Shown here: positions 853 through 60,534 of the stretch, one piece after another
Layout of the letters: the number at the start of each line of letters is the position of its first letter
Position numbering within the stretch: position 1 is the stretch's first letter
Virus genome (UHGV): UHGV-0036853
Origin: a virus
DNA: 64,000 bases
Direction: 5' to 3' (one strand)
Notes under the pieces: generated by a model
The model's database searches: none
Seen by the model: only the letters and a program-made list of their open reading frames with translations
What the model was told of the DNA's origin: nothing
Program-made: the position numbers and the translations under genes

Positions 853-914
853 GTGTTTTCCTATGTGGTTGTTATGCGAAAATGATAAGTAAGTACTTAT
901 ATATTTTCAAGAGA

Positions 915-939
915 TAAAAAAGGCGTCCTGTGGACGCCT
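915..939 (-). terminator. rho-independent terminator after the RecA-like gene
   Basis: Hairpin aggcgtcc-tgt-ggacgcct (921-939) followed on the minus strand by a T-run (A-run 915-920 on plus). Confidence 0.6.
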
Positions 940-944
940 TGTGT

Positions 945-2018
945 TTACTCTTCTACTGACTCGGTGGGATTGTCTTTTGATCTCCGGTCGTCGATTGCCT
1001 GTAAAGCCGCAATGATTTCAGCTAGTGGCTTCTCCCGATACATCTCGACGATCTGTGATTTGGTGTATTTCTTGTCACCAATTTCTACGCGCCCGCTGGC
1101 GTTCTTTGGCAGGTATCCTTCATCCAGCATGTACTCGACGAGCGATTCGATAACGTCGAGGCCACGAGTAGGATCGAAGTAGAATTTCCAGGTGCACTTG
1201 CCATACGGTGGTGCAACTTTGTTTTTGATGCACTCTGCGCCTACGTCCTGACCGATCTTCTCTTTACCATCCTTCATCACCGATGCACCGAGACGGATGC
1301 GCACAGAAGCGTAAAACTTCGGTGAATCGCCGCCTGGTGACGTCGTAGGGTCGCCAAACATTACACCGATTTTTGTGCGAACCTGATTCAAGAAGATGAT
1401 GCAGGCGTTATATTTGCGTGCCCACAAAGCCAGAGTGGGGAAGTTCGCGCTCGTCGCACGAGCAAGCGCCGTATTGTCGTTCATGTTTAGCTGATCTTTG
1501 TCTTTGGCAGTGCCTTCAGCCATCTTTTCGAACTTCTCGGCTTTGGAGTTCGGAACCATAGACGCAAGTGAGTCAGCCACGATACAGATAGGTGCTGATT
1601 CAGGAATAAGCTCTTCATCACGTACCAATTTAAGTATTGTGCCGATCAACTCTACAGAGTCTTCGAAGGTATCTGGCTGCTTGTATACCCACTGACCGTC
1701 ATCCTCATCTGCATTCAAGCCATTGGCTACCGCCAGGCCAACGTCAAAACTGTTCTCATGATCGAGGAATACCGCCAGACCATCTTGTTTCTGAGCGGAG
1801 ATCATTGCTGCTGTTGCCAAAAAGGTTTTCCCCGCGCTTGGCGGGCCGAATACTTCTACGATACGACCACATGGGAAACCGCCATCGTAACGACCGGAAA
1901 TAGCTTTGTTTAACGGAGGAAAGCCTGTGTCAATCCAATGAGTTACTTTCTGAATTTCGTCGTTGCTACCGATTTTCTTTTTCAGAGCAAGTGCCAGTGC
2001 GGATTTTCCTTTTGCCAT
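945..2018 (-). CDS. RecA-like recombinase
   Basis: 357 aa; Walker A GPPSAGKT; overall RecA/UvsX-like layout. Confidence 0.75.
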   Translation of the reverse strand: MAKGKSALALALKKKIGSNDEIQKVTHWIDTGFPPLNKAISGRYDGGFPCGRIVEVFGPPSAGKTFLATAAMISAQKQDGLAVFLDHENSFDVGLAVANGLNADEDDGQWVYKQPDTFEDSVELIGTILKLVRDEELIPESAPICIVADSLASMVPNSKAEKFEKMAEGTAKDKDQLNMNDNTALARATSANFPTLALWARKYNACIIFLNQVRTKIGVMFGDPTTSPGGDSPKFYASVRIRLGASVMKDGKEKIGQDVGAECIKNKVAPPYGKCTWKFYFDPTRGLDVIESLVEYMLDEGYLPKNASGRVEIGDKKYTKSQIVEMYREKPLAEIIAALQAIDDRRSKDNPTESVEE

Positions 2019-2020
2019 GA

Positions 2021-2293
2021 TCAGGCTCCTTTTGTTTTGTTGATTCGTTTTAAAGCGGCGGATTCGTCGAATACAATCGCATCGTGGTTAAGGAGTCTGG
2101 ATACACGAGCGAGGATTTTTACGACCTGCTCGCTGACTAATCCAAACTCGCGATCTGTCGCTTTAATTCCGGCAGCGCCTAGAATTGACGGCAGTGCGAT
2201 GACAGCGTACTCACCGTGATAAAAGACAATCTCTTTTGCCAGTTGGGTAGGGGTGGTTGTAGCGCCATTAATAATCGATTTAAGCATTAGCAA
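2021..2293 (-). CDS. hypothetical protein
   Basis: 90-aa ORF tightly packed between the FEN and RecA-like genes. Confidence 0.4.
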   Translation of the reverse strand: MLMLKSIINGATTTPTQLAKEIVFYHGEYAVIALPSILGAAGIKATDREFGLVSEQVVKILARVSRLLNHDAIVFDESAALKRINKTKGA

Positions 2294-3282
2294 TACCTTT
2301 CGAATGGAAGAACAAACACTTCAAGGTCTTCAAGGAACGAACGGAAATTCAGCTCGTAGCACAGTTGCTCGAATGCTTTCACGTCACGATTGCCTTTGAT
2401 TGTTTCGATTTCGGTAGGCGGAAACTTCGTCTCAATCAGGTTCATTAGCGTGATGTTTCTCTTGAACGCTTCGAGCATTCGACAGCCTGTTTTCTCGTTG
2501 AAGGCATTCTTCGCTAGTTTGTTGAAGGCGGTCTTATGACGCCCTTTATTAACCACGATTGAGCCGTCGTTGATGCCGCGTACCATCGTTGCGACACTTC
2601 CCCATTCATGCAGCAGCTCTTTCGCGCCGCCAGCACCAATGCCACCAACACCGCTAATGTTGTCCGAGTTATCGCCTTGTAATGCTTTTGCTTCCAAAAA
2701 TGCGCGAGGCGTGGCGAATCCTGTCAGCTCCGCAAATTGCTCAAAATTAACCTGCTTGTTTTTGGCGTCTTCACGCAGGCTTACCCAGCTTACGTTTTCG
2801 CGAACTAACTGAAGCCAGTCGCTATCGCCTGTTAACAGATAGATGTGTTCAACGGTTGGCTGCGGTGCCATGCGGGATACCAGCAGCCCGGCCAGATCAT
2901 CCGCTTCTGCATCTTTTGCAATGATTTGGTTAACACCAAGCGCGGTCATCATTTTGAGGATGTATGGCTTCTGGACAGCAAAGCCTTCCTTCATCTTTTT
3001 CATATCAGGATCGTCGTCGCGATTTGCTTTGTAGTCCGGGTAAAAGTCGCGACGCTTGTCACTAAATCCATCCCAAAGAATCATAGGTCGGGCATGGAGG
3101 ATGGAGGCATAACGACGGACGTTCTTAACAAAGCCGAAAGCAGCCTGTACTTCCATTTCGCCGTTGTGCAATTTGTCAGATTGTTGGTGGTAATAACCCA
3201 GGCTATTGCCATCTACGAAGAGATAATTCACCGGTACATTCCTTCCAAAAAGTAAGGCGTCCGTAGACGCCTTACTGGTCAC
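2287..3282 (-). CDS. 5'-3' exonuclease / flap endonuclease (T5 D15 / Pol I N-terminal family)
   Basis: 331 aa; LLTGDSDWLQLV acidic metal-site motif and helix-hairpin-helix segment DNISGVGGIGAGGAKELL. Confidence 0.85.
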   Translation of the reverse strand: MTSKASTDALLFGRNVPVNYLFVDGNSLGYYHQQSDKLHNGEMEVQAAFGFVKNVRRYASILHARPMILWDGFSDKRRDFYPDYKANRDDDPDMKKMKEGFAVQKPYILKMMTALGVNQIIAKDAEADDLAGLLVSRMAPQPTVEHIYLLTGDSDWLQLVRENVSWVSLREDAKNKQVNFEQFAELTGFATPRAFLEAKALQGDNSDNISGVGGIGAGGAKELLHEWGSVATMVRGINDGSIVVNKGRHKTAFNKLAKNAFNEKTGCRMLEAFKRNITLMNLIETKFPPTEIETIKGNRDVKAFEQLCYELNFRSFLEDLEVFVLPFERYC

Positions 3283-3291
3283 GTAATGGGA

Positions 3292-4314
3292 TTACAGAGA
3301 GTCCAGCTCTCTCAGTAGGTCATCCAGACCTTCGTCTTCCGTCGCAGATGCGGCTGCTACAGATGTCGTTGCGTCTGCTTCAGACTCTTTGGCTGATGCG
3401 GCAGCAGAACTTGTTTCTGATTTAAATTCAGATTCCATTGCTCGCAGAACTTCTTCATCAACCAGACTGGTTGGTTCAGAAGCTGGAGTGTGGGCGGTTG
3501 CTACAGCCGTCGCTCCTTCCGTATGACCAGTGATCGAGCCAAATCCAGGCAGTGCAGAGGCCGATGTTTTCGCTGTTGAGGAAATTGCTGGTGCCGATGC
3601 AGTGGCAGTTGGTGCAGCGATGCCAATCAGACGACCCATAGTGCGAACTGTCGCAAGAAGGCGAGTTTCATCGGCCTGATTCACATAAGCAATCAGGTCA
3701 TGTTGGTTGTTCCAGAATTTATCTTCGATATCACCTTTGAAGACTTTACGTTTTGGTGAAACGTCATATTCTGTATCGCGACCAGAGCCTGTGCGCTTAA
3801 TTTGAAATGCGTAACCTTCCTCTTTGCTTAATGGATTGCCGATATCGTCAGCGATGTCTTCGGTGATTGCTTTGCAGATATCATCGAACACAGTGGAAGG
3901 CAGTTCGATTAACTGACATTTCTCTGCATCGGAGAAATCCTCACGAGTTGAAAGAATGCCGTTTACCAGGTAGCGAGGGGTTGCACGCATTTGACCGATG
4001 CGCTCTTCCATTGCTTTGTTACCCTTGTGACGAGCGCGACCTTCCATCACCATTTCGCATAGCTGACAAGCGCGACCGTGAGTATGTTGCTCACAAATAT
4101 AAGCATTGGTTGCTTCTTTACCTTCCTCGTTCTGATACTTAATGTAGTGCATACCAAAAGTCTGGAAGAACTTACCATTCGGGTCGTCTTTATTAGGGAA
4201 GATGCGGATATAGTTGATGCCGTCTTTTAAGCGGGTCAAATCAGTGTTTTTGCCACGTTTGGCGGCAATGTCTTCACGAGTTTTGTTAAGCAAATCAAGT
4301 AATGTCTTAGACAT
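3292..4314 (-). CDS. ssDNA-binding protein, gp32-like
   Basis: 340 aa; His/Cys zinc motif CEQHTHGRACQLC; Ala/Ser-rich linker; acidic C-terminal tail EDEGLDDLLRELDSL. Confidence 0.5.
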   Translation of the reverse strand: MSKTLLDLLNKTREDIAAKRGKNTDLTRLKDGINYIRIFPNKDDPNGKFFQTFGMHYIKYQNEEGKEATNAYICEQHTHGRACQLCEMVMEGRARHKGNKAMEERIGQMRATPRYLVNGILSTREDFSDAEKCQLIELPSTVFDDICKAITEDIADDIGNPLSKEEGYAFQIKRTGSGRDTEYDVSPKRKVFKGDIEDKFWNNQHDLIAYVNQADETRLLATVRTMGRLIGIAAPTATASAPAISSTAKTSASALPGFGSITGHTEGATAVATAHTPASEPTSLVDEEVLRAMESEFKSETSSAAASAKESEADATTSVAAASATEDEGLDDLLRELDSL

Positions 4315-4431
4315 GTGTTTCTCCTTGTTGTGATTTGGCCGATGGCGCTATGCGCGTTGGGCTTTCGTTCATTCGTGGCTCTTTCGAGCTGTTAAATGAT
4401 AGATCAGTACTTACTTATTATCTATCAAAAA

Positions 4432-4863
4432 TCAACGGGGAGTAATAAAGCGTTCAGAGCCTAATCGATCTAACTCAACGATGGCCATCTTCGACGCCTG
4501 AACGATCATGTCTCGGCGATGCGAAAAGGCGGCGACAGCATGTTTGTATATGTCTGCGATGTGCCGTGCTTCATCCAACTTCTGCCGTTTAGACAGATAC
4601 TGTGGGTTTGTTTTAACCTTAGCGTCCAGTACAGACTCGTTGAACTTAATGCCGTTCATACTCAAGTTCTTACGCTCTGTGTCGTATAGCTTTGCTTCAA
4701 CAGCTTCAAGGTTAAGTTTTGCCTCTGCGACACTTCTTTCTGCATGAGCGAGTTTTGAGCCATACTCCATTAAAAGGCGGGGTTGTCTACGCCAGACTTC
4801 CTCCAGATTGTCTCGGTCAAACTCGAGATCAGACATTATTTTCTCGTAAATATCGGTGATCAT
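4432..4863 (-). CDS. hypothetical coiled-coil protein
   Basis: 143-aa ORF, charged and helical. Confidence 0.4.
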   Translation of the reverse strand: MITDIYEKIMSDLEFDRDNLEEVWRRQPRLLMEYGSKLAHAERSVAEAKLNLEAVEAKLYDTERKNLSMNGIKFNESVLDAKVKTNPQYLSKRQKLDEARHIADIYKHAVAAFSHRRDMIVQASKMAIVELDRLGSERFITPR

Positions 4864-5239: not shown

Positions 5240-5572
5240 GTGAAAAAAGTATTAGGTGCTATTTTTGGTGGTTTGCTTCTTCTGCCAGTTGTAAGCAATG
5301 CAGCGGATGCACAAAAAGCCGTCGACAATAAAAAACCTGTTAACGCTTGGACCTGTGAAGATTTCTTGGCTGTGGACGAATCTTTCCAGCCTACAGTTGT
5401 AGGTTTTGCTGATGCTCTGAACAAGAAAGGCAAACCCGAAGATGCTGTTTTAGATATTCAGGGGGTTGCTACTGTAACTCCTGCGGTCATTCAGGCTTGC
5501 ACTCAGGATAAAAAAGCCAGCTTTAAAGATAAAGTTAAAGCCGAATGGGACAAAATTAAGAAAGATCTATAA
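5240..5572 (+). CDS. hdeA: periplasmic acid-stress chaperone HdeA
   Basis: 110 aa; signal peptide; near-colinear match to E. coli HdeA as I recall it (CEDFLAVDESFQP, VTPA..QACTQDK, EWDKIKKD), roughly 85 percent identical. Confidence 0.9.
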   Translation: MKKVLGAIFGGLLLLPVVSNAADAQKAVDNKKPVNAWTCEDFLAVDESFQPTVVGFADALNKKGKPEDAVLDIQGVATVTPAVIQACTQDKKASFKDKVKAEWDKIKKDL

Positions 5573-5646: not shown

Positions 5647-5985
5647 ATGGGGTGTAAAATGACAGTTTCATCTCTACGTAAGGCCATGATTTTTTTAGGT
5701 GCAGTAGCTGCTCTTTCGCTGGTGAATGCACAATCTGTGTTGGCTGCCGGTGGTTCAGCTAATGATATGACTTGTCAGGAATTTATTGACCTGAATCCAA
5801 AAGCGATGACGCCAGTTGCTTGGTGGATGCTCCATGAGAAAACAGTATATAAAGGCGGTGATACTGTAACTCTGACTGAAACGGATCAGACTCAGATTCC
5901 TGAAGTGGTTGAATACTGCAAGAAAAACCCACAAAAAAACTTGTATACCTTCAAAGATAAATTGGCAAATGTCCTGCCTAATTAA
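5647..5985 (+). CDS. hdeB: periplasmic acid-stress chaperone HdeB
   Basis: 112 aa; signal peptide then DMTCQEFIDLNPKAMTPVAWWMLHE..VYKGGDTVTL..EYCKKNPQKNLYTFK, matching E. coli HdeB as recalled; start could be the second ATG at 5659. Confidence 0.85.
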   Translation: MGCKMTVSSLRKAMIFLGAVAALSLVNAQSVLAAGGSANDMTCQEFIDLNPKAMTPVAWWMLHEKTVYKGGDTVTLTETDQTQIPEVVEYCKKNPQKNLYTFKDKLANVLPN

Positions 5986-5990
5986 CTAAT

Positions 5991-21315: not shown

Positions 21316-21370
21316 AAATAATCTTGTACTTACCTATCGTTATTTGCGTAAAAAACGACGCGCGGAGAGA

Positions 21371-22153: not shown

Positions 22154-22228
22154 ACCAACTCCTAGCTAACAGATGAAAGTATTCTTACAGAAAGATAAGT
22201 AATCATCTACTTATTTTAGCGGCACTTG

Positions 22229-25625: not shown

Positions 25626-25721
25626 CTGGTAGGTAGTTACTTACTTATCACAATGAGCGGATGATAGCGACTGGTGTCAGTTTTTGGAAGTGAAAACGGA
25701 AGGGAGTTGTTCTGGTGGGTG

Positions 25722-29804: not shown

Positions 29805-29873
29805 GAAAAGTCAAATCGGGATGGCGGATTTATATCACATTTCACCCTTTTGTTGTAGGTGTGTACTTACCTA

Positions 29874-30107
29874 TCATTCAGCATTGCAACGGACTGATGA
29901 GAAAGCACCTACTCCTACCCATCGCCAGTTATAGATGCTACCCGCTTTGTATAAGGTATAGTCGTTCACTTTTTTAACAGCATATATGGGTATGACTGTC
30001 TCCTGTCCACCAATGATAGCCTCACCATAACATATAGGTGTCGGCAATTTCTGGCAGCCAGTAAGAGAGAGAACAACAGCTATTGTTAGAAATAATCTTT
30101 TCATCAT
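29874..30107 (-). CDS. small lipoprotein (candidate Cor/Llp-type superinfection exclusion protein)
   Basis: 77 aa; lipoprotein signal MMKRLFLTIAVVLSLTGC; sits just downstream of the tail fiber genes. Confidence 0.55.
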   Translation of the reverse strand: MMKRLFLTIAVVLSLTGCQKLPTPICYGEAIIGGQETVIPIYAVKKVNDYTLYKAGSIYNWRWVGVGAFSSVRCNAE

Positions 30108-34595: not shown

Positions 34596-34687
34596 GTTGA
34601 ATATGCTCCTTGATTTGGCGGGCTATCCTTGCCCGCCATTAAGTAAGTACATACTTATTTTTACCGATGTAAATATTTTTTTCTACA

Positions 34688-41529: not shown

Positions 41530-41578
41530 CCTGTCAGCGCCACAATGATAGTAAATTAGTACTTACTTATCCAGATAC

Positions 41579-43494: not shown

Positions 43495-43522
43495 TGGGCG
43501 TATAGCCCACCCTTAAACTTAG
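43495..43522 (-). terminator. rho-independent terminator after the major capsid gene
   Basis: Hairpin agggtgggcgtatagcccaccct with a T-run on the minus strand. Confidence 0.6.
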
Positions 43523-43546
43523 ATAATTACTTATCTACCGCACTGA

Positions 43547-45356: not shown

Positions 45357-46931
45357 TCACTCGTTCTCTTGAGTAGATGAGTCCCCATTCCCTCGGGGTT
45401 GATCTTGCCCGCTTTCTTGGGCCACACCACGATCATAAGTAAGTACTGACTTATTTTCAAGGGTATTTAGATCATTTTTTGGCGGAAAATTCAAGAGATC
45501 TTTATCAAATTCCTTTTTCATCGCCTCAGTAATGTTCGGGAAAATCTTCTCAATAAGCATTTCCATCTGGTGACGACGTACAGAGTCCGGTGCCTGAAGT
45601 AATGACAGTTTCTCGGCAACAGAAAATTCATCTGTAAGGCCACGAATATCGAAACTTTCTGGATACGCAATTAAAGAGTGGTCTTCGTCCAGATCTACCC
45701 CCATCCATTTCGCAACCAGTAGCATGATTTGGCGTTCAGCCCTTTCCAGACGCTCTGCTTTTGTGACAAGCAAGCTATTTACACGCTGGAAGTCATACAT
45801 TTTTGCGGCACCAGATGAGTTATCGATTCCCTGTGCGTTGTCCTGCTTCGTTCGCTCACCAGCTACACCAACTGAATGGTAGATTTCGTTAATCACCGTC
45901 TTAATCGTAGTGATGATCATCTGAGCTTGTTTCGGGTCTGGTGACAGATAAAACGGCTGGTTTCCACCTTCAGAATCGTAGGTGAAGACTCGCTTTGTGC
46001 CCATTTCAAGCACTTTAGTGTGGTTTTCATCACCAGGTAAAAGCGACTGTACCGGTATAGCCAACTGGCTAAATGTCTGATCCTGAATAATGGCATCAAG
46101 GTTTGACAGATAGTTTGCAACCGCACGATCAAGATAAGCGATATCATCGATCAACGATGGGCTGAAATACGGTGATTCACTTTCTCCAATACAATCAACA
46201 GGAAACACAGGAACTACGCCGAGATTATGCTCACCGCTATCCTCTAAAATAACTTTTGCCTGACGGCGACCTGCTCCACCAGCGCCCTTCTTCACTTCCT
46301 CACGGAACAGATACCACTCGTTTTGTGTCCACAGACGATAACGTTGGTATTCCTGACCTGTAGAAGTAAAAGGATCTGCGTCATCACGAGCGACTTCCAC
46401 AATTAACGCCCACAACATATTCCCGTCGTCGTCCCATGCCACATCCAGCATTTGCTGAGGTGAAATCCAGTAGGCGTAGGCGCGAGCATCTTTCTTTTTC
46501 TCGTCAGCTACTGACTCAACATCACCACTCATCGTGCTATCGACAACAACCCATATGCGACCGTAAATAGACGACTGCAAATCAATAGCGGCCATAAATG
46601 AGTCAATAGAGGCATTCTGGCGAGTCGCACGTTTCCAGAAATTGCGGATCTGCTCTGGTGCCTCTTCGATATTTCTATGAATGTCTTCTTTAAAGAGATA
46701 TTTGTTGATGAGGTTTACCACCTCACGAGTGTGGTTGAAGCGATAAGCACGTTCAACTCGCTCCTTAAACTCCTGATCTCCCTCTTTAAAGTAACGAAAG
46801 ATATTGTCTGTAAACCAACCACGCCCGCCAGCGTAAGTGCTGGCGAGGAAGTCCCAATGTTCTTTTTTCTTTTCGTATTCCGGGTGGCGTCGCGCCACCA
46901 GATCCTTAATTTGTTTGTCGTTCAATTCCAT
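45357..46931 (-). CDS. portal protein
   Basis: 524 aa; immediately downstream of the large terminase. Confidence 0.7.
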   Translation of the reverse strand: MELNDKQIKDLVARRHPEYEKKKEHWDFLASTYAGGRGWFTDNIFRYFKEGDQEFKERVERAYRFNHTREVVNLINKYLFKEDIHRNIEEAPEQIRNFWKRATRQNASIDSFMAAIDLQSSIYGRIWVVVDSTMSGDVESVADEKKKDARAYAYWISPQQMLDVAWDDDGNMLWALIVEVARDDADPFTSTGQEYQRYRLWTQNEWYLFREEVKKGAGGAGRRQAKVILEDSGEHNLGVVPVFPVDCIGESESPYFSPSLIDDIAYLDRAVANYLSNLDAIIQDQTFSQLAIPVQSLLPGDENHTKVLEMGTKRVFTYDSEGGNQPFYLSPDPKQAQMIITTIKTVINEIYHSVGVAGERTKQDNAQGIDNSSGAAKMYDFQRVNSLLVTKAERLERAERQIMLLVAKWMGVDLDEDHSLIAYPESFDIRGLTDEFSVAEKLSLLQAPDSVRRHQMEMLIEKIFPNITEAMKKEFDKDLLNFPPKNDLNTLENKSVLTYDRGVAQESGQDQPRGNGDSSTQENE

Positions 46932-46957
46932 TTGAATAACCTTAGATAATTACTTAC

Positions 46958-48214
46958 CTATCGAGAACCACCAAGAATAACACGGTTTTTGACTGGATAC
47001 CTACGATGTACTGGATAGCCCAATGCGTCTGCACTATGCTCAATGCCACCTGTCTTATCCATATCTCGTGTTCCAGGCTTGTAGATGACTTTTTCCAGTG
47101 AATCAATCAAATGCTTGCACTTCGGATCGATATACAACCGGATATCTCCAGATGCGGTCATCAGCATTCGGTTAACAGCATTAACACGATCCGCAATTGG
47201 CGGGTGCTTTTTCGAATAATCGACACGTAAGAATCCCTTCTCTTTGAAAATGTCGACGTCAGACTCCCCGCGAGCATGTTGGCGATAAGCACCTGCCGGA
47301 TCTGGAAATACCGTTATCTGTGATTTCCAGCGCCAGAAGCGTCTCTCAAGCTCATCACAAACCTCTGCCGTGTTAGAGGAAAAGAGCACCAATTCATCAA
47401 TTGCCCATAGCTCGCCGTTTGGCTGAGGTTGCAAAATTACGGAAGACATCGGGTCAATGTTGAAGTCCTGTCCTACCCATATAGGCAACCGAGGGTTGAA
47501 TTGAAGCGGTTTAACATGCACGTTACGATCGAACGGGTAGTAAACGCGACCGGACATGTTCTCAAAGCTGGCTAGGTACTCCTGAGCGAACGATTTGGGG
47601 TCCATATCGTTCTTAGCAGCTTCAATTTCCGCCGTAGGTACAAACGGAGAATCGGCAGTTACAAACTGCCAGCTCTTCCACTGTCCCTTTCGTTGCAGCT
47701 CTACGTTCTGACCTATAGTCCACAGTTTGTGAAATTCCGAGAAGCCTTTTGGCGTTCCAATGATCAGTGCACCGCCGCGTGTCGATGAAAGAGTTGGTCG
47801 TAGTACCTTGTACCAGGTATCAGCCTTCATATCCTGAAATTCATCAAGCACTACAAAATGCAACGCAACGCCGCGCAGAGTGTCAGGCTTATCAGCACCT
47901 TTAAGGGCGATCTCCGAACCGTTCTTCAACACGATTGTCATCGTGGTGTCGTTCTTTTTCCTAACCCACTTACGAGGCAGAACTTCCTGTAGATCGTCCC
48001 ACAAAATCTGACGAGCCATCTGATAAGTCGGGGCGACATACCAGACCCTTTGCTTTTTTTCCTTTGCAGCCGCACGAATAATAGTTGAGATCGACAACCG
48101 GGATTTCCCCCAGCGTCGACCAGCACAAACAACTTTAAATCGATGCGGTGACTGGAAGACTTTCATCTGTCCAGAATGCAACTGCACAAGACTTAGAGAG
48201 GACGGGATTGCCAT
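46958..48214 (-). CDS. terminase large subunit
   Basis: 418 aa; Walker A-like VVCAGRRWGKS; ATPase then nuclease layout. Confidence 0.85.
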   Translation of the reverse strand: MAIPSSLSLVQLHSGQMKVFQSPHRFKVVCAGRRWGKSRLSISTIIRAAAKEKKQRVWYVAPTYQMARQILWDDLQEVLPRKWVRKKNDTTMTIVLKNGSEIALKGADKPDTLRGVALHFVVLDEFQDMKADTWYKVLRPTLSSTRGGALIIGTPKGFSEFHKLWTIGQNVELQRKGQWKSWQFVTADSPFVPTAEIEAAKNDMDPKSFAQEYLASFENMSGRVYYPFDRNVHVKPLQFNPRLPIWVGQDFNIDPMSSVILQPQPNGELWAIDELVLFSSNTAEVCDELERRFWRWKSQITVFPDPAGAYRQHARGESDVDIFKEKGFLRVDYSKKHPPIADRVNAVNRMLMTASGDIRLYIDPKCKHLIDSLEKVIYKPGTRDMDKTGGIEHSADALGYPVHRRYPVKNRVILGGSR

Positions 48215-53858: not shown

Positions 53859-53860
53859 TT

Positions 53861-54936: not shown

Positions 54937-54963
54937 CCATCCATTAATCATAGCCAGACAAAT

Positions 54964-55383
54964 ATGAAAGTAACAAACCTAATTATTTTAACACTAGCCA
55001 CATCACTAATTGGGTGTTCATCTTCATCTATATCTGTTTCAAAGGCAAAGTATGCACCTCAAAGCAGAATATTTAAATATCAAACACCACATGAGTCTAG
55101 TCTAACAATAGTTAGAGACAAAGGGCTGGTTGGTTCTGGATGTAACGCTTCCATATTCATCAATGGAGAAACGGCAGCAAAATTGGAACCTGGTGAAAAA
55201 GCAACTTTCTATCTTAATGAAGGAGATTGGATCGTTGGGACATCAATTGAAAGTTCAGGTCTTTGCGCATTTAACCCCTCTAGGATGGAGCGAGAAATAA
55301 AACTAAAGCAAGGCGACGCGAAAACATATCGGGTTTTCACTACCTGGGATGGTACAATGGATATATTGCCAACCACTTTATAA
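54964..55383 (+). CDS. lipoprotein (AT-rich island)
   Basis: 139 aa; signal with lipobox LIGC. Confidence 0.55.
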   Translation: MKVTNLIILTLATSLIGCSSSSISVSKAKYAPQSRIFKYQTPHESSLTIVRDKGLVGSGCNASIFINGETAAKLEPGEKATFYLNEGDWIVGTSIESSGLCAFNPSRMEREIKLKQGDAKTYRVFTTWDGTMDILPTTL

Positions 55384-55387
55384 TGAT

Positions 55388-55912
55388 ATGACGACGAAAG
55401 ACATCACCTACGGTGTGCCAGCAGAAGTCTGGCCTCGAGATTACACTAACGTTGAAAAACTACTGATGTTCTGGCGCAGAGAACAAATTCCTGTAAGGGC
55501 CACTCTCGAAGATGGTCAGGCGTTTTGCATGTACGTTTATGGCCTCATGCCATCTCGTAACAAAGTTGACCTTTGCCCAGCCCCTTTTGACAAAGAAAAT
55601 CGTATAAGGCTCCCAATTGAACGCATTAGTACAATTGAATCAGGTGTGGTTGACAGTATCGCTCACGATTTCAAAGGTCGACTAACAGTTCACCCTGATT
55701 ATGTCGATAATCGGCCATCACGCCGCGATTTTTTTGCAATTTGCAACCAAGCCTACAAAGCAAACAAATCTATAAGGGTGTACATGGCGGATGGCCGTGA
55801 AATTGAGGGGGTGTCAGCAGGCGCAGATGCTTGTCAGGTTACACTACGTGTCGAGAACGGTAGAAAAATAGTTGTTTTGTTCGATTGGGTTGAACGAATT
55901 TTGCCTTTTTGA
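55388..55912 (+). CDS. hypothetical protein (AT-rich island)
   Basis: Start set to ATG at 55388 (MTTKD...) just after the upstream stop; track ORF begins at 55349. Confidence 0.5.
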   Translation: MTTKDITYGVPAEVWPRDYTNVEKLLMFWRREQIPVRATLEDGQAFCMYVYGLMPSRNKVDLCPAPFDKENRIRLPIERISTIESGVVDSIAHDFKGRLTVHPDYVDNRPSRRDFFAICNQAYKANKSIRVYMADGREIEGVSAGADACQVTLRVENGRKIVVLFDWVERILPF

Positions 55913-55915
55913 GTT

Positions 55916-56224
55916 ATGAAATCGATATTGTTACCACCATTATTTTTACTTTGCTCAGTTGCGGCAAATGCAATGGACTATAAGCCTGTCATTCAGTCGC
56001 TGATGAATGACGTGTGCTCAACGTCTCAGAATGTATCAGTTTGCATGTATCAATTTTCGGCAGCCGTAAAAGCAGGAAAAGCGATAGGTGAGAATGTGGA
56101 ACTGTGTAAGAAAGTGGCAAATGAAGAACGAGCAATGTTGGATTGCGAATCTAGCGAGTCATCGGCACAGTTCGTTGATGCGCTATTTGACACCAATCGT
56201 AAGGCTGTAGAGTCTGTCCAATAA
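55916..56224 (+). CDS. secreted Cys-containing small protein
   Basis: 102 aa; signal peptide MKSILLPPLFLLCSVAANA; 6 Cys in mature part. Confidence 0.5.
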   Translation: MKSILLPPLFLLCSVAANAMDYKPVIQSLMNDVCSTSQNVSVCMYQFSAAVKAGKAIGENVELCKKVANEERAMLDCESSESSAQFVDALFDTNRKAVESVQ

Positions 56225-56237
56225 ATCTATAAGGTTA

Positions 56238-56262
56238 ATAACCGGCTAAGTCCGGTTATTAT
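56238..56262 (+). terminator. rho-independent terminator
   Basis: Hairpin ataaccggctaagtccggttat followed by tatttttc. Confidence 0.6.
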
Positions 56263-56507
56263 TTTTCACATCACTTCTTTATATCTATAAATCAAATAAT
56301 CTAAATATATATAAGGTCGAAAGCCGTAATCGATTATTTATTTAGGGAACACCTTCGACGATCTCGCTTTTATTTCTAGGACTTTCATCCCTGCAAAAAA
56401 TTTTAAAAAAACACTTGCAATCTTTTTTCGCGTATCGATAATTGAACTCGTCGAAAGCGAAGACGCTAACGACAATAAATTTTAAATTTACATAAGGAAA
56501 AATTATC

Positions 56508-57158
56508 ATGGCTAACATTATCATTTCTAAAAAATCCATCATTGAAGCTGCTTCCATTGTATCCGATGAACTGCGCGAAAAAGCAGATCTGGCAACTCAA
56601 ACATATAACGAACATTATAAAAATGGTACGCACACTAAAGCAGACAAAGCAAATATGCAAGCTGCGACCACTAAACTTGCTTACTTCATCAACAACGTCG
56701 TAAACGCAGTAGAAGACGAAAAATTATGCTCTGTTTTCTACTATGCGATTAAAGCAAGCAAACAAGCGCCAGAAGTATTTTTCCGTGATGCAATGACTAA
56801 TAGTTATTCACTGGAAAAACTGGTTTATCTGGTTAAATCCATTAAAGCTGGTAAATGCGTTTATTCCGTCGCTGATATGTCAGGATCTCGTGTATTCGCT
56901 TTAATCGATATGATTAACGACGAGATCGACACGTTCACTAATGGCGCTGTTTTCGATTTAATGAATGAAGCTAAAAAAGCGTGCGAAATTAAATTGGACG
57001 CTGGCTATACTCAAGCCAACCAGTTGATCAATCTTTGCGAACGTCTCGGACTTGTTGAGAAAGTCAAAGGAGCTGGGAGCGCAAAAGCTGGTACTCAGCA
57101 ATATCGCTTCATTAAAAATGATTTCTACAATTATTTAGCTGATGCTTTCAAAGCGTAA
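56508..57158 (+). CDS. hypothetical protein
   Basis: 216-aa ORF with upstream AT-rich promoter region. Confidence 0.5.
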   Translation: MANIIISKKSIIEAASIVSDELREKADLATQTYNEHYKNGTHTKADKANMQAATTKLAYFINNVVNAVEDEKLCSVFYYAIKASKQAPEVFFRDAMTNSYSLEKLVYLVKSIKAGKCVYSVADMSGSRVFALIDMINDEIDTFTNGAVFDLMNEAKKACEIKLDAGYTQANQLINLCERLGLVEKVKGAGSAKAGTQQYRFIKNDFYNYLADAFKA

Positions 57159-57206
57159 TTAATGGAATCAAGCGCCCACTATGGGCGCTTTAAAGGAGCT
57201 TTAAAA

Positions 57207-57410
57207 ATGGTCAGCTATGACAAGATCCGCGCAGAATATCGCGCAAAGTATCGCGCTTATAAACTGGAATTAATCGATGATTTGATCGCGCAACGCGACC
57301 AATTAAATTTTACGTTTTCTGATTTGCTTAACAGCAAGCGAGATTGCAAGCGCAAACGTGAATACTTACGTTTAAGCACATTAATCGGAAAACTTCAAAA
57401 TTCTATTTAA
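57207..57410 (+). CDS. hypothetical small basic protein
   Basis: Start set to MVSYDK... because the track ORF start (57162) overlaps an upstream hairpin. Confidence 0.4.
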   Translation: MVSYDKIRAEYRAKYRAYKLELIDDLIAQRDQLNFTFSDLLNSKRDCKRKREYLRLSTLIGKLQNSI

Positions 57411-57431
57411 TTTTTTTTAAGGAGCTTAATC

Positions 57432-57662
57432 ATGTTTGTTCTTATCGCTGGCGTTAACGTCCATAATGAATATTATGTTAATCGCATCGCTGGGATCGCT
57501 GGTTACGCTGGGCGCTCAGTCGAGCTTATAGATGAAACGACGCGCAAAATTGACTTATTGAGCGACCAGGAGCGAAAAAAAGCAGACGTGAACGACGCTG
57601 ATATATTTTTAATGTTAAAAGCGTTTGTAGAAATGGGATTTGAAATCAGTTTACATAAATAA
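57432..57662 (+). CDS. hypothetical small protein
   Basis: 76-aa ORF followed by a strong terminator. Confidence 0.4.
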   Translation: MFVLIAGVNVHNEYYVNRIAGIAGYAGRSVELIDETTRKIDLLSDQERKKADVNDADIFLMLKAFVEMGFEISLHK

Positions 57663-57667
57663 AATCG

Positions 57668-57694
57668 AGCGCCCACTATGGGCGCTTTTTTCGT
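57668..57694 (+). terminator. rho-independent terminator (same hairpin repeated at 57171-57189)
   Basis: agcgcccactatgggcgct followed by ttttttcg. Confidence 0.7.
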
Positions 57695-58150
57695 TTCCAA
57701 TACTTCCACCATAACGCGCCATCATTGGCGCGTTTTTTATTGTCTTTGACTCACTCCAACAACATAAAAATAAGCGCCAAAATAACGCCATAGACGCGCT
57801 TTTATATCCTTGCCAGTACATACCCATTACTTAACGCATTAACGCGCTTAAAACGCGTTATATTGCGCTATAACGTATGGCTAATCATTAATTTTTATTC
57901 TTGCTATGTGATCCGCGTTTATTTGTCGGCGCGGATCGGCATTTTGTGTTGTTCTGTGTCCGCTCGCGTATTATGTGCGCGTGATTTTTCACATAATCAC
58001 ACCACTTAATCACGTATGTGATTACGCTACGAAAGAAATCTGGATGTCTCAGGCGACGAAAGTCATCATGATTTTCCCCGCTCGCCTGTCCGACAACCGC
58101 TGGTTGGATTCCACCAGCTTCCCGATGTTTTTTCTACATAAAGGCGAATG

Positions 58151-58266
58151 CAGCCGTTTCCCGAAAAAATCCTGGCCGTTTCCCGTCGGCTCATGAATAC
58201 GTTCCTCGCCGTTTCTGAAAATTTCCCTGCGGCAGCTGGTGGCTATAGAGAAAGGGCCGTTTCTGG
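58151..58266. repeat. iteron-like direct repeats GCCGTTTC(C/T), four copies
   Basis: cagccgtttcccg (58151), tggccgtttcccg (58173), cgccgtttctg (58207), gggccgtttctgg (58254). Confidence 0.5.
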
Positions 58267-58278
58267 CCCTCTTCTCAG

Positions 58279-58761
58279 TTACACGCCATCAAGGATGTGG
58301 ATGCGGTTGCTTGTGTATACATTCAACATAAAGTTAGCGCAAAACAGTTTCCATGTATCAACGCCAGCGGTATACGTAATGTTTTTGCATTTAATTGCAT
58401 TGTTGGCGATCCGCATCCCCTGCGATACTGCTTCATCGTCGGAAAATTTGAACGACGATTGAGTTTTAATCCAGACAGAAATCTGCGTAGCGAACTCAAT
58501 CAGCTTGGACTGGCAGAATCGCCCGGAGCGCACCGGAAAGACGAACGTTCCGAATCCAGAATTTACCACATACGCTTTCTCAAATACCCGCGAGTAACGA
58601 CGATTGCCAATGATGTCGCGTGCAATAATGCATTTTTCTTGTGCTGACAGTTCTACCGTCTCATTGTCGCGCCATGCACCAAGTACTCGTTTTTCAATGT
58701 CAGAGAACGTTACAGCGATATTGCCATGTGCGGGTGCGTTTACAGTAGCGATAAAATTCAT
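58279..58761 (-). CDS. hypothetical protein (right-end small-gene array)
   Basis: 160 aa; RBS AAGGA; class II motif at 58781-58816 upstream. Confidence 0.5.
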   Translation of the reverse strand: MNFIATVNAPAHGNIAVTFSDIEKRVLGAWRDNETVELSAQEKCIIARDIIGNRRYSRVFEKAYVVNSGFGTFVFPVRSGRFCQSKLIEFATQISVWIKTQSSFKFSDDEAVSQGMRIANNAIKCKNITYTAGVDTWKLFCANFMLNVYTSNRIHILDGV

Positions 58762-58965
58762 GATTAATTCCTTATAGTAAATAACAAATTGTTTTCTTGT
58801 TGGTGTTAATTATCGTTGTACGAATAAGGCGTCAAAGTGGAAAGTTGCGGTAGCCGGACGGGAACAGGTGGGTTTGTCGGTTGCCTGGAGGTAAGAGGTT
58901 GGTGTTTTTAGCCTGCGGGAAACAGGATGGTCATTTAAGGCCACCAGCATTGGTGACCTTATTCT

Positions 58966-59253
58966 TCAGTGGAGCAGACCGATGTCGATGGTATCCCCTG
59001 AATCATCCACACGGATCATCAGCATGGCGAAGGCGTTTAGTGGATAGCTTGCGTGCCATTCAGGGAAGCGGTCATCTCGCATGAAGTCGGCAATGTCGTA
59101 AACGATGCCCTCAAAGTGAAAGAATCTCGTGCTTACCTGCTCGTCATATTCCACATGATCCATTTCTTGCTGTTCTGTTTCCGGCAAGTCCAGCCATGAT
59201 TCGAGTAATACATTTTGTGCTTTGGTGGTAATGGTGAAATCAGTCATGAGCAT
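58966..59253 (-). CDS. hypothetical acidic small protein
   Basis: Start set to an internal ATG (MLMTDF...) because the class II motif (59262-59300) lies inside the longer track ORF. Confidence 0.4.
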   Translation of the reverse strand: MLMTDFTITTKAQNVLLESWLDLPETEQQEMDHVEYDEQVSTRFFHFEGIVYDIADFMRDDRFPEWHASYPLNAFAMLMIRVDDSGDTIDIGLLH

Positions 59254-59582
59254 ATCCTCACTGCGTAAACATGTTGTTTTCTTGTTGGTGTAATTATCGC
59301 AGTGTAGATAAGGCATAAAAGAAGTTAATACAGGCTGAATACACAAGAAAGGTTCTCGAAGTTGATAGCCAGGTTTCAAACTAACCTTCGGTTATTAAAA
59401 GTCATTTAAGACCACCAATGCTGGTGGCCTTAATAATTATCGCCCGATTACGCTAAGGATCTTTTCCTCAACTGATTTGTTGTTGCGACTAAACTGCCTT
59501 GCGTATCTAATGACAGAAGAGGCGTTTCGCTTTCTGACCATTTCGGCTCTTTCCTTCAGGCGTTTCTTGAAATCGCCCATAT

Positions 59583-59999
59583 TTACCACCAGGCGCAGAA
59601 CGTCAGTCTGTTATTGTGAAAGTCGTGGTTCCTGATCAGGTCTTCCACAAGTTTTTTCAGCTTGTCCACGTCATGCCAGTAACCTTCATCGTACTCCTGA
59701 CTGCCGAAGAAAAAACCTTCCCGGGTAGGCAAGTACTCTTCGCAATTACTTTCGTTTATGTGCATCAAATGAGCCTTCAGAAAACAAATGTCATTCATCG
59801 TTAATTCTAAAAGCTCACAATTTTCGACTTCACCTACGTTGCGCTCCATCCACCCAACGAGCGCATTGAACTTACGGAAGTAAGCAACCCGCTTTCTGGA
59901 TGCCTCATTATTCAGATCGTTTTTTGGCTGCGTCTCAATGTAAATATCAAGCCCCATGATGGTTTCCTTATTAAGTTGCTTCAGTGAAATCATTTTCAC
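59583..59999 (-). CDS. hypothetical protein
   Basis: 138-aa ORF (track start is GTG; ATG alternatives at 59993 and 59957); class II motif at 60008-60030. Confidence 0.45.
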   Translation of the reverse strand: MKMISLKQLNKETIMGLDIYIETQPKNDLNNEASRKRVAYFRKFNALVGWMERNVGEVENCELLELTMNDICFLKAHLMHINESNCEEYLPTREGFFFGSQEYDEGYWHDVDKLKKLVEDLIRNHDFHNNRLTFCAWW

Positions 60000-60074
60000 A
60001 AATCAGATAAGGCAGAAAACAAATTGTTATCGGGTATAAGAAAATGGCGCGGTTTACGCGCCATTTAAAGAGGA

Positions 60075-60470
60075 TTAAGCGAATACGCTTTCAGGGATTA
60101 AGGTGTCAGCAGGAATGCCGGAGGTAATACGCAGACCGTACTGACCAATCCAGGTGGTGCTGGTGTTCAGGCTGGAGGTGAATACGGAATTAACCATATT
60201 CATCATGGTTTCAAACACCTCTTCATCAACCTGGCGGAAGTAGTTCTCGATTTTCAGCAGCAGCGGGTCAGTTGCATCGAGAATGGACTGGTATTGAGTC
60301 GCGTACTCGCCGCCGGAGGCATCACCTTTACGCACGATCGTACTGGCCTGTACTTCGGCACCAGTTTCGGTGTTGTACGTAACAACGGTGATTTTTGCCA
60401 CATTCTTACCTTCGGCGGTTTCAGAGGCATAGTAAACATCAACTGTCAGTTTTTCGCGTTTAACGGTCAT
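60075..60470 (-). CDS. hypothetical protein
   Basis: 131 aa; RBS GGAGAG; class I motif at 60514-60530 upstream. Confidence 0.5.
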   Translation of the reverse strand: MTVKREKLTVDVYYASETAEGKNVAKITVVTYNTETGAEVQASTIVRKGDASGGEYATQYQSILDATDPLLLKIENYFRQVDEEVFETMMNMVNSVFTSSLNTSTTWIGQYGLRITSGIPADTLIPESVFA

Positions 60471-60534
60471 TTCACTCTCCGTAGTGTCTTGGTTATTTTT
60501 CTATTTTATAGTCGTAGGTATGTACTTACAATAC

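What the first reader, a model, noticed from the sequence alone, without database searches (positions are those of the whole stretch)
884..60530. Element-wide class I motif GATAAGTAAGTACTTACTTATC, at least 15 copies
A near-palindromic ~20-bp motif recurs mostly 20-60 bp upstream of minus-strand genes: 884-902, 4398-4426, 11011-11035, 15729-15753, 18672-18694, 22194-22215, 25630-25650, 29856-29877, 34628-34648, 41547-41572, 43521-43537, 45435-45456 (inside the portal 3' end), 46944-46962, 52234-52255, 60514-60530, and inside both palindromic elements. It does not resemble a canonical sigma-70 promoter, so it may be a phage-specific promoter or a regulator binding site.
Basis: seen in the sequence. 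Interest (0 to 1): 0.5.

Follow-up and report, generated by a model that had tools for sequence, protein, structure and literature searches.

The report
Dispersed repressor-type operator sites, phage-plasmid
A 22-bp palindrome repeated about 16 times between the lytic genes of this SSU5/pHCM2-type E. coli phage-plasmid is real and is most likely the docking site of the element's own helix-turn-helix repressor, marking the boundaries of the gene blocks that must stay silent while the phage lives as a plasmid.

Summary
The window is an SSU5/pHCM2-like E. coli phage-plasmid. It carries 16 copies of RATARGTA-N6-TACYTATY (consensus GATAAGTAAGTACTTACTTATC); 15 lie between genes, all within the arrays transcribed in the lytic direction. 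The motif is conserved at the same gene boundaries in SSU5, Cyrano, pHCM2, Klebsiella plasmids and Y. pestis pMT1, with lineage-specific variants in K. oxytoca and Acinetobacter relatives.

It is not a canonical sigma-70 promoter: no -35 or -10 sits at a fixed register in the gene direction. It is not a selected hairpin either, because the two arms vary independently.

A core copy (GGTAAGCACTTACC) sits on the start site of the conserved promoter of the XRE-type HTH gene at 13719-14105. That gene is Cyrano's annotated repressor. SSU5, isolated as a phage, is pHCM2 minus a 7.5-kb segment holding this gene, yet keeps 24 sites.

Published lysogen RNA-seq places the sites at transcription-unit boundaries, though not significantly more than other gaps.

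Best reading (about 0.55): these are dispersed operators of the prophage repressor, comparable to P1 C1 operators or mycobacteriophage L5 stoperators. The main rival is an activator-dependent lytic promoter of the P1 Lpa type.

I found no description of the motif in the literature I could search. I rate it a new member of a known kind, of moderate interest.

The parts
884..905 (.). class I site. It follows an intrinsic terminator (920-940) and lies 31 nt before the start of a 66-aa membrane-protein gene at 852.
   Evidence: At the orthologous Cyrano site (CYRAN_55 to 56) expression steps up 3.6 log2 at 6 h in macrophages.
4398..4419 (.). class I site between the UvsY-like gene (4432-4863) and the gp32-like SSB gene (3292-4314)
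11010..11031 (.). weak or irregular class I site between the CobT-like and AAA-ATPase genes
   Evidence: score 13.8, at the edge of the null range
13645..13687 (+). promoter of the HTH gene: -35 TTTACA (13645-13650), -10 TAATAT (13667-13672), then the class-I-like core palindrome GGTAAGCACTTACC (13674-13687) over the predicted start site
   Evidence: Conserved in Klebsiella, Y. pestis pMT1 and pHCM2.
13719..14105 (+). XRE-type HTH protein, 128 aa. This is the candidate repressor that binds the motif. It is 98% identical to CYRAN_45, annotated 'putative repressor'.
   Evidence: PMC9928086
15729..15750 (.). class I site in the divergent gap between the glutaredoxin gene (-) and the 302-aa ORF (+)
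18672..18693 (.). best-scoring class I site, upstream of the non-coding stretch and tRNA cluster (16923-17924, minus strand)
21317..21338 (.). class I site abutting the start codon of the 160-aa gene. In Cyrano the equivalent gap (CYRAN_34 to 35) shows a 2.4-4.3 log2 drop in expression, and I saw no strong terminator there.
22194..22215 (.). class I site between the primase gene and the 260-aa gene. In Cyrano expression steps up here by 1.9-3.4 log2 (CYRAN_33 to 34).
25628..25649 (.). class I site between the ParA-type partition operon and the replication genes. In Cyrano expression drops 3-7.7 log2 across this boundary (CYRAN_30 to 31).
29854..29875 (.). class I site (TAGGTA/TACCTA variant) upstream of the lysis genes
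34638..34659 (.). class I site between the tail protein J gene and the tail fibre gene, followed by a GC hairpin
41550..41571 (.). class I site upstream of the minor tail protein L gene, followed by a terminator-like hairpin (41519-41541)
43514..43539 (.). short-spacing variant site after the major capsid gene, upstream of a strong terminator (43496-43512)
45434..45455 (.). class I site inside the portal 3' end, about 100 nt before the scaffold and capsid genes. It is conserved in SSU5, Cyrano and loci with 69% portal identity.
46941..46962 (.). variant site between the large terminase and portal genes, 9 nt before the portal start codon
52233..52254 (.). class I site in the divergent gap between the ParB-like gene (head of the late array) and the DEAD-box helicase gene
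60513..60534 (.). weak class I site directly after a terminator, upstream of the 131-aa gene

Best explanation
The motif is a symmetric, two-half-site protein-binding operator, RATARGTA-N6-TACYTATY. About 25 copies per complete element mark the boundaries of the lytic transcription units: morphogenesis, lysis, replication and nucleotide metabolism.

The most likely binding protein is the element's own XRE/Cro-CI-type helix-turn-helix protein (window 13719-14105; Cyrano CYRAN_45). In this model a dimer of that protein occupies the sites while the element lives as a plasmid. It blocks initiation where a site overlaps a promoter, and blocks read-through from genes that are expressed in the lysogen. 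It also limits its own synthesis through the weaker core-only copy on its own promoter.

Shown here: the sites, their placement, their conservation, their symmetry without arm-to-arm covariation, the related site on the HTH promoter, and the absence of the HTH gene from the isolate SSU5.

Inferred: that this HTH protein is the binder, and that binding represses.
For: (1) The sites are real and almost entirely intergenic. They occur only in the arrays transcribed in the lytic direction. None lies in the opposite-strand block at 52299-58462 or in the accessory part.

(2) Copy numbers are 27 (PWM at least 13; 24 at 15 or more) in the complete relative NZ_CP031294, 24 in SSU5 and 23 in Cyrano, at orthologous boundaries. 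The motif is also present in Klebsiella, in pMT1, and in loci with only 69-72% portal identity.

(3) The arms vary independently: 75.4% of cells pair, against 75.8 +/- 0.8 in shuffles. This points to protein half-sites rather than a hairpin.

(4) The HTH gene's promoter, TTTACA-16-TAATAT, is followed at once by GGTAAGCACTTACC. The only exact match to the 12-mer GTAAGYACTTAC in 64 kb lies within it. The arrangement is conserved in E. coli, Klebsiella, Yersinia and pHCM2. Variant lineages carry their own motif variant at that same position.

(5) The motif variant tracks the HTH lineage and its predicted recognition helix: NANNLSLIKSGK with ATAAGTA; NVNTLSIIKAGK with ATATGTA; NQNMVSFIVRGK with TATTAGTAAG.

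(6) The predicted fold of the HTH protein matches dimeric operator binders: P22 C2, 434 cI and Cro, C-proteins, HigA and Stl. Its homologues come almost only from roughly 100-116-kb contigs.

(7) SSU5 equals pHCM2 minus 7.5 kb that holds this gene.

(8) The Cyrano authors list this gene as the putative repressor, expressed about 10-fold above background in the lysogen.

(9) In Cyrano RNA-seq, all five genes that are expressed in the lysogen and followed by a site show a 2.6-7.7 log2 drop across it. The two largest step-ups specific to 6 h in macrophages are at sites.

(10) The syntenic Pseudomonas phage nickie, in the 50 kb examined, has no HTH-integrase module at the syntenic position and no sequence-conserved dispersed motif. 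The same search on the window recovers ATAAGTAAGT in 13 of 58 gaps.
Against: There is no binding experiment, so the link between protein and site is circumstantial.

Everything diverges in the variant lineages, so the covariation between helix and motif is weak evidence.

The motif is unusually conserved across genera for an immunity operator.

A 22-bp footprint is long for one XRE dimer.

The RNA-seq boundary effects are not significantly different from those at other intergenic gaps (p 0.18-0.45), and many sites adjoin intrinsic terminators that could explain the drops.

CYRAN_34 is expressed in the lysogen although a site lies just upstream of it.

I did not verify from a paper that SSU5 is unable to lysogenise.
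Confidence: 0.55

Rival explanations
1. Activator-dependent lytic promoters. A phage protein made early in lytic growth binds the palindrome and recruits host RNA polymerase to promoters that lack a -35 element. This is how P1 Lpa works at its 11 late promoters, each of which carries a 9-bp inverted repeat. The copy on the HTH promoter would then shut off repressor synthesis during lytic growth.
For: Sites lie at the upstream end of each gap, leaving 9-98 nt before the start codon. Four or five of the 14 sigma-70-like matches on the minus strand within the lytic array fall on the motif in one register, with TATCAT at positions 19-24. Sigma-70-like promoters are otherwise depleted: 17 found against 32 expected, 10 against 28, and 22 against 30. 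Inducible step-ups occur at the Cyrano sites 55 to 56, 59 to 60 and 11 to 12. The motif is strongly conserved across genera, as expected for core transcription signals. The P1 precedent is described in PMC10695390. The syntenic gaps of nickie carry -10-like hexamers.
Against: The flanks show no directional asymmetry: T24 occurs at 0.61 against the mirrored A(-1) at 0.59, and -10-like hexamers occur at 23% forward against 26% reverse. No other fixed -10 or -35 element was found. Three or four sites are followed directly by terminator-like hairpins, after the capsid gene and before nrdA for example. The portal site leaves only 9 nt before the start codon. No candidate activator or sigma factor was identified. 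Neither the 70-aa divergent gene nor the HTH gene can be the activator, since SSU5 lacks both.
Confidence: 0.22
2. An RNA-level element. In the mRNA the palindrome would form a hairpin used for processing, stability or translational repression, for instance by the FljA-family protein encoded at 55349-55912.
For: Sites lie in co-directional intercistronic gaps, several within 20 nt of the ribosome-binding site. An FljA-family protein (PF03614, E = 1e-83) is encoded in the opposite-strand block and is conserved in SSU5. One such FljA homologue (fljA-z66 of plasmid pBSSB1) is described as acting post-transcriptionally on fliC (PMC2652032).
Against: Pairing is no higher than column composition predicts: 75.4% against 75.8%, with 357 of 500 shuffles at least as high. 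Changes on both sides are fewer than in shuffles. In that 80-sequence set 27 of 80 rows are unpaired at the pair of motif positions 5 and 18; in the 47-site set, 8 sites have an A-C mismatch there. There is no Rfam match. The related site on the HTH promoter lies on the other strand, at a transcription start.
Confidence: 0.06
3. Sites with a DNA-level role that is not transcriptional: parS/KorB-like loading sites for the two ParB-N-domain proteins (50868-52234), or sites for DNA organisation or recombination.
For: The motif is a dispersed palindrome. Two ParB_N proteins are encoded next to site 52233. By my recollection, KorB of plasmid RK2 binds about 12 dispersed palindromic operators.
Against: The ParB-like genes are also present in nickie, which has no such motif. 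The sites are confined to gene boundaries of the lytic-direction arrays. The related site sits exactly on the HTH promoter. The motif variants follow the HTH lineage.
Confidence: 0.05

Closest known systems
Bacteriophage P1 C1 repressor with its dispersed operators
   Same: Both are enterobacterial phage-plasmids. In both, one repressor would control many lytic operons through many operator copies spread around the genome, some of them overlapping promoters. The P1 C1 details are from my own knowledge. [quoted passage not shown]
   Different: By my recollection P1 operators are asymmetric 17-mers, and C1 is unrelated to XRE-type HTH proteins. In P1 the late operons are controlled by Lpa rather than directly by C1. 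Here the same palindrome also precedes structural and lysis genes.
Mycobacteriophage L5 (Cluster A) repressor gp71 with operators and 'stoperators'
   Same: L5 has 20-30 repressor sites throughout the genome, mostly in short intergenic gaps of the lytic gene arrays. A few are true operators at promoters; most block elongation. The motif and the repressor co-vary between lineages (PMC6550527). The number, placement and lineage covariation here are alike, and expression drops across sites lying downstream of lysogen-expressed genes.
   Different: L5 sites are asymmetric 13-14-mers bound by a monomer, and they are oriented with transcription. The motif here is a symmetric 22-bp palindrome with no orientation. 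Blocking of elongation has not been shown here.
P1 late promoters with the Lpa-binding 9-bp inverted repeat
   Same: P1 has about 11 dispersed copies of an inverted repeat upstream of lytic operons in a phage-plasmid (PMC10695390). In one possible register the dyad here would lie about 20 bp before a start site.
   Different: No conserved directional -10 element accompanies the dyad here. No Lpa-like gene was identified. The motif also precedes replication genes.
Operators of Cro/CI-type (XRE) phage repressors such as 434 cI/Cro and P22 C2
   Same: The predicted fold of the candidate binding protein matches these proteins. The target is palindromic, and there is a copy over the protein's own promoter.
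   Different: By my recollection those phages have a few clustered operators of 14-18 bp in one immunity region. Here there are about 25 dispersed 22-bp sites.

Membership tests
Canonical sigma-70 promoter | -35 and -10 hexamers at a fixed spacing, oriented toward the gene | tested here: not met
   At any register tied to the motif, -35 scores equal random expectation. The -10-like TATCAT at positions 19-24 is equally frequent in the mirrored orientation, 23% against 26%. About a third of sites have some -10-like hexamer 24-60 nt downstream, against about 10% in reverse, which is not significant.
Intrinsic terminator or selected RNA/DNA hairpin | Base pairing kept through compensatory changes; a GC-rich stem followed by a T run | tested here: not met
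   75.4% of cells pair, against 75.8 +/- 0.8 in shuffles, and changes on both sides are fewer than in shuffles. None of the terminator-like hits coincides with the motif itself; they are neighbouring hairpins.
Operator of a dimeric HTH repressor (Cro/CI/XRE type) | Two-fold symmetric site with independently varying half-sites | tested here: met
Operator of a dimeric HTH repressor (Cro/CI/XRE type) | A copy overlapping the regulator's own promoter (autoregulation) | tested here: met
   The core palindrome at 13674-13687 lies directly after the -10 of the HTH promoter and is conserved in four lineages. Variant lineages carry their own variant at that position.
Operator of a dimeric HTH repressor (Cro/CI/XRE type) | Physical binding of the protein to the site, and repression | not testable with these tools
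   This needs gel-shift, footprinting, ChIP-seq and reporter assays.
L5-type stoperator system | Many repressor sites in intergenic gaps of the lytic arrays, most not associated with promoters | tested here: inconclusive
   The number and placement fit, and no fixed promoter elements were found. However, the RNA-seq shows starts at some sites, and the drops are confounded by adjacent terminators.
L5-type stoperator system | Asymmetric site, oriented with transcription, bound by a monomer | tested here: not met
   The motif is a symmetric palindrome. The upstream half is only slightly better conserved than the downstream half (9.6 against 9.1 matches; 24 sites against 15).
P1 Lpa-type late promoter | An inverted repeat at a fixed distance upstream of a conserved -10 element, plus an Lpa-like activator gene | tested here: not met
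   There is no directional -10 element. No activator gene was recognised among about 48 proteins scanned. Lpa itself was not used as a query.
Promoter of a phage-encoded RNA polymerase or sigma factor | A polymerase or sigma gene in the element, and an oriented conserved promoter | tested here: not met
   None was found in the annotations or in the Pfam and PHROG scans. The sigma-70-family gene of the Acinetobacter relative has no homologue in the enterobacterial elements. The motif has no orientation.
ParB/KorB-type dispersed sites | Sites co-occur with the ParB-like protein across relatives | tested here: not met
   Nickie encodes the ParB-like gene but has no conserved dispersed motif.

The most novel reading that the evidence does not exclude
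SSU5/pHCM2/pMT1-type phage-plasmids would silence almost their whole co-directional lytic genome through about 25 copies of one palindromic site. A single small XRE protein bound there would act both as a promoter operator and as an elongation roadblock or insulator against read-through from plasmid-maintenance and accessory genes. That would be an enterobacterial, symmetric-site counterpart of the mycobacteriophage stoperator system. It would extend to relatives in Acinetobacter and to the Y. pestis pMT1 remnant.
Probability: 0.25. Interest if true: 0.6.

Novelty: new member of a known kind. Interest (0 to 1): 0.45.

Why it matters
SSU5-like phage-plasmids are very common. Over a thousand PLSDB plasmids matched the first 20 kb of this window (170 over at least 80% of it), and 961 carry a homologue of the HTH gene. 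They include S. Typhi pHCM2 and Y. pestis pMT1/pFra, and members of the group carry resistance genes (PMC9600943). How they control lysogeny is essentially undescribed.

A defined operator motif together with a candidate repressor would give three things: a map of the lytic transcription units, a way to predict immunity groups from motif and repressor variants, and direct experiments on induction and curing. If the sites also act as roadblocks, a mechanism so far described mainly in mycobacteriophages would extend to enterobacterial elements.

Tried and rejected
**Literature.** Four full-text searches, including the motif sequence itself, found no description of this motif. The P1 genome paper (PMC523184) is not held.

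**Sigma-70 promoter in a fixed register.** Rejected by mirror and random controls.

**RNA or DNA hairpin.** Rejected by the covariation test and by Rfam.

**Phage sigma factor or RNA polymerase.** None was found in the enterobacterial elements. The Acinetobacter sigma gene has no homologue there.

**FljA-family protein as the binder.** It is retained in the isolate SSU5, and a homologue (fljA-z66) is described as acting post-transcriptionally. I kept it only as a minor rival.

**ParB-like proteins as binders.** Disfavoured by the comparison with nickie.

**Host factor.** The half-site TACYTAT resembles the NarL heptamer as I recall it, but the arrangement is the reverse of the 7-2-7 layout, and the lineage-specific variants argue for a phage-encoded factor. 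I did not pursue this.

**Exact 16-mer scan of IMG/VR.** It returned 56 stretches, mostly single hits near the chance level. It showed nothing about breadth beyond one SSU5-like contig and a few unrelated contigs with paired copies.

**De novo k-mer counting on whole loci.** This was swamped by low-complexity words. Restricting the count to intergenic gaps worked.

**Cyrano RNA-seq step analysis.** Suggestive, but not significant against other gaps.

Full report
**Identity of the window.** The window is about 96-98% identical over long stretches to many E. coli IncFIB plasmids of roughly 110 kb and to Escherichia phage Cyrano. It is about 82% identical to Salmonella phage SSU5. It is therefore an SSU5/pHCM2-type phage-plasmid. 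Almost all lytic genes lie on the minus strand: morphogenesis, lysis, replication, and T4-like gp32, UvsY and recombinase genes. A block on the opposite strand occupies 52299-58462.

**The observation.** The consensus GATAAGTAAGTACTTACTTATC occurs far above chance. With up to 5 mismatches there are 10 sites against 0.03 expected; with up to 6, 13 against 0.3. A PWM scores 15 sites at 14 bits or more, against 0.06 expected (that PWM was built from these same sites). I count 16 sites, listed in the parts section. Fourteen of 16 are scored intergenic against a 12% intergenic fraction (P about 1e-11). The fifteenth overlaps only a + strand ORF from my crude gene caller that the plasmid gene table of the relative does not list, so only the site in the portal 3' end is truly in coding sequence. 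The two long palindromic elements hold only a shortened core.

**Anatomy.** Aligned on the gene strand, the information lies in positions 2-21, giving RATARGTA-N6-TACYTATY. It extends weakly to aATGATA...TATCATt. The motif is essentially symmetric. The upstream half matches the consensus at 9.6 positions against 9.1 for the downstream half, and T at position 24 (0.61) is mirrored by A at position -1 (0.59). On 80 distinct sites from six elements and the window, the two arms pair in 75.4% of cells, against 75.8 +/- 0.8 when the 3' arms are shuffled among sites. The half-sites therefore vary independently. That is what a dimeric DNA-binding protein predicts, and not what a selected hairpin predicts. 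Rfam finds only the tRNAs.

**Is it a promoter?** The simple sigma-70 scan finds fewer promoter-like sites than shuffles do: 17 against 32, 10 against 28, and 22 against 30. Four or five of the 14 minus-strand hits within the lytic array fall on the motif in one register, with the -10 as TATCAT at positions 19-24. That hexamer, however, is part of the extended palindrome. It scores as a -10 in 23% of sites forward and 26% in reverse. Scores for a -35 at 16-18 bp from any motif-anchored -10 equal random expectation. Other downstream -10-like hexamers are only mildly and non-significantly commoner in the gene direction. Several sites directly follow an intrinsic terminator (884, 60513, and SSU5 55694, 57745, 93164). 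Several others are directly followed by a hairpin: 43514 after the capsid gene, 41550, 34638, and SSU5 67774 before nrdA. No phage RNA polymerase or sigma factor was found in the enterobacterial elements. The motif is not a self-sufficient oriented promoter.

**Conservation.** The complete relative NZ_CP031294 has 27 sites at a PWM score of at least 13 (24 at 15 or more), SSU5 has 24, and Cyrano has 23 in its first 100 kb. All lie at orthologous boundaries of the arrays transcribed in the lytic direction. The motif persists in Klebsiella plasmids, in Y. pestis pMT1/pFra, in pHCM2, and in viral contigs with only 69-72% portal identity. Variant lineages have variant motifs. A K. oxytoca plasmid, and contigs such as L082, use ATATGTA...TACATAT. 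Acinetobacter plasmids of about 110 kb use TATTAGTAAGCACTTACTAATA.

**Link to a protein.** The gene at 13719-14105 (+) encodes a 128-aa XRE-type HTH protein. It has a sub-threshold Pfam HTH_19 hit and matches PHROG 8, 'transcriptional regulator'. RefSeq records name its homologues XRE family regulators. An AlphaFold model has pLDDT of about 87 over residues 10-90. It matches P22 C2, 434 cI and Cro, C-proteins, HigA and Stl, with target-normalised TM-scores of 0.7-0.8 but weak E-values.

The protein is 98% identical to CYRAN_45. The Cyrano authors list that gene as the putative repressor, expressed about 10-fold above background in the lysogen.

Its promoter reads TTTACA-16-TAATAT and is followed at once by GGTAAGCACTTACC (13674-13687). 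The only exact match to GTAAGYACTTAC in the window lies within it. The whole arrangement is conserved in Klebsiella, Yersinia and pHCM2, and each variant lineage carries its own motif variant at the same place. The same factor therefore probably reads both the dispersed sites and this promoter. Negative autoregulation by the adjacent HTH protein is the simplest reading. The predicted recognition helix changes along with the motif type. Homologues of the protein come almost exclusively from contigs of roughly 100-116 kb, and 961 PLSDB plasmids carry one, usually next to a site-specific integrase gene.

**SSU5.** SSU5 has 24 sites but no homologue of this HTH protein or of the integrase. Aligning pHCM2 with SSU5 shows 96-98% identity on both sides of a 7.5-kb pHCM2 segment that SSU5 lacks. 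That segment holds the 70-aa divergent gene, the HTH gene and the integrase gene. That is consistent with the HTH protein being the lysogeny repressor: the one member in hand that was isolated as a phage lacks exactly this module. It also shows that neither the HTH protein nor the 70-aa protein is needed for lytic growth, so neither can be an essential activator.

**Expression data.** I used the per-gene RNA-seq table for the LF82 lysogen (PMC9928086). All five genes that are expressed in the lysogen and followed by a class I site show a 2.6-7.7 log2 drop across the site: 16 to 17, 30 to 31, 34 to 35, 64 to 65, and 71 to 72. The two largest step-ups specific to 6 h in macrophages, 4.6 and 4.5 log2, are at class I sites (55 to 56 and 59 to 60), and 11 to 12 rises by 2.7. 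The sites therefore sit at transcription-unit boundaries, and some coincide with inducible starts. Compared with other intergenic gaps, however, the effects are not significant (p 0.18-0.45), and neighbouring terminators confound the drops.

**Comparison with a relative isolated as a phage.** Pseudomonas phage nickie has 50% portal identity and the same gene order. In the 50 kb examined it has no HTH-integrase module at the syntenic position. A de novo word search that recovers ATAAGTAAGT in 13 of 58 gaps of the window finds nothing comparable in nickie; its best words are T runs in 5 of 24 gaps. Nickie's gaps carry diverse hairpins and -10-like hexamers instead. This is a single distant comparison.

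**Conclusion.** The motif is a protein-binding operator at the boundaries of about 25 lytic transcription units (confidence about 0.8). It is most likely bound by the XRE-type prophage repressor (about 0.55). The closest known systems are the P1 C1 operator network and the mycobacteriophage L5 operator and stoperator system (PMC6550527). The main rival is an activator-dependent promoter of the P1 Lpa type (PMC10695390). I found no description of this motif in the literature available to me.

Noticed in passing
window 42700 (junction); relative L002 12592-20685: Compared with complete relatives, the window lacks 8.1 kb. The missing stretch runs from inside the tape-measure gene to inside the Ig-like protein gene, and removes the head-tail connector genes, the major tail gene and one class I site. 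This copy is probably a defective prophage-plasmid.
   Followed up: yes
window 15232-15247: A LexA-box-like CTGT-N8-ACAG overlaps the -10 of the promoter of the integrase gene (14100-15203, minus strand). It is conserved in E. coli, Klebsiella, pMT1, pHCM2 and a second Klebsiella lineage. The integrase gene converges on the HTH repressor gene and overlaps its 3' end by 6 nt. In Cyrano the integrase gene rises about 25-fold inside macrophages. This may be an SOS input to the switch.
   Followed up: partly
window 13255-13467 (minus strand): A conserved 70-aa gene is transcribed divergently from the HTH gene, in a Cro-like position. Its Cyrano orthologue CYRAN_46 rises about 90-fold at 6 h in macrophages, while the next gene (CobT-like) stays about 30-fold lower. 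This suggests a strong stop after the gene. Its function is unknown (PHROG 2627).
   Followed up: partly
window 55349-55912 (+): A full-length FljA-family protein ('repressor of phase-1 flagellin', PF03614, E = 1e-83) lies in the opposite-strand block. It is conserved in SSU5 at 81% identity. It might repress host flagellin as a form of lysogenic conversion.
   Followed up: partly
window 5240-5572 and 5647-5985 (+): Two HdeA/HdeB-family acid-stress chaperone ORFs occupy the locus where SSU5 and pMT1 carry a DNA-binding or excisionase-like gene.
   Followed up: no
window about 25733-25792 and 48963-49021; relative L003 about 22240-22300: Palindromes of about 60 bp are framed by CCTGCTTC...GAAGCAGG with an AT-rich centre. 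Two are nearly identical, one after the par operon and one upstream of the small terminase gene. A third, in the relative, has a different centre. Their function is unknown.
   Followed up: partly
window 16923-17924 (minus strand): A tRNA cluster (Ser, Thr, Tyr, Asn) lies downstream of class I site 18672. A conserved stretch, TATAAGAT...tttgttttcgttgagacgcgac, follows that site in E. coli, SSU5 and pMT1.
   Followed up: no
whole window: Pairs of sigma-70-like hexamers are depleted relative to dinucleotide shuffles in all three 20-kb blocks scanned: 17 against 32, 10 against 28, and 22 against 30.
   Followed up: no
window, e.g. 10964, 13183, 24859, 26889, 58789, 63286 (minus strand): The A-rich word AGAAAACAA is enriched (22 matches against 6.9 expected). 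It lies mostly on the gene strand, often 10-30 nt before start codons. It is probably a feature of leader or ribosome-binding-site composition.
   Followed up: partly
L089 (Acinetobacter baumannii plasmid NZ_CP143347) 15101-15766: The syntenic Acinetobacter relatives encode a sigma-70-family sigma factor between the MoxR-type ATPase gene and dnaE. The enterobacterial elements have no homologue. These relatives also carry a variant dispersed palindrome, TATTAGTAAGCACTTACTAATA.
   Followed up: partly
L149 (Pseudomonas phage nickie) gaps at 9424, 41939, 43738, 45355, 47547: The intergenic gaps of this syntenic relative hold inverted repeats that differ in sequence from one another. Their loops are -10-like hexamers, for example CAGCGCG-TATACT-CGCGCTG and GCGCTTG-TACAAT-GCAAGCGC.
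   Followed up: no
L096/L131 1628-1670; L100 11623-11700; L093, L126, L138, L145, L147: Unrelated environmental viral contigs carry two or three nearby copies of GTAAGTAAGTACTTACTTAC-like palindromes, 21 or 55 bp apart in two cases. They look like operator pairs from other phages. The contigs were selected through the exact 16-mer, so their ascertainment is biased.
   Followed up: partly
L092 (pHCM2) 7505-15044 against SSU5 42639-42673: SSU5 is essentially pHCM2 with a 7.5-kb deletion. The deletion removes the 70-aa gene, the HTH repressor gene, the integrase gene, and the glutaredoxin, PhoH and neighbouring genes.
   Followed up: yes
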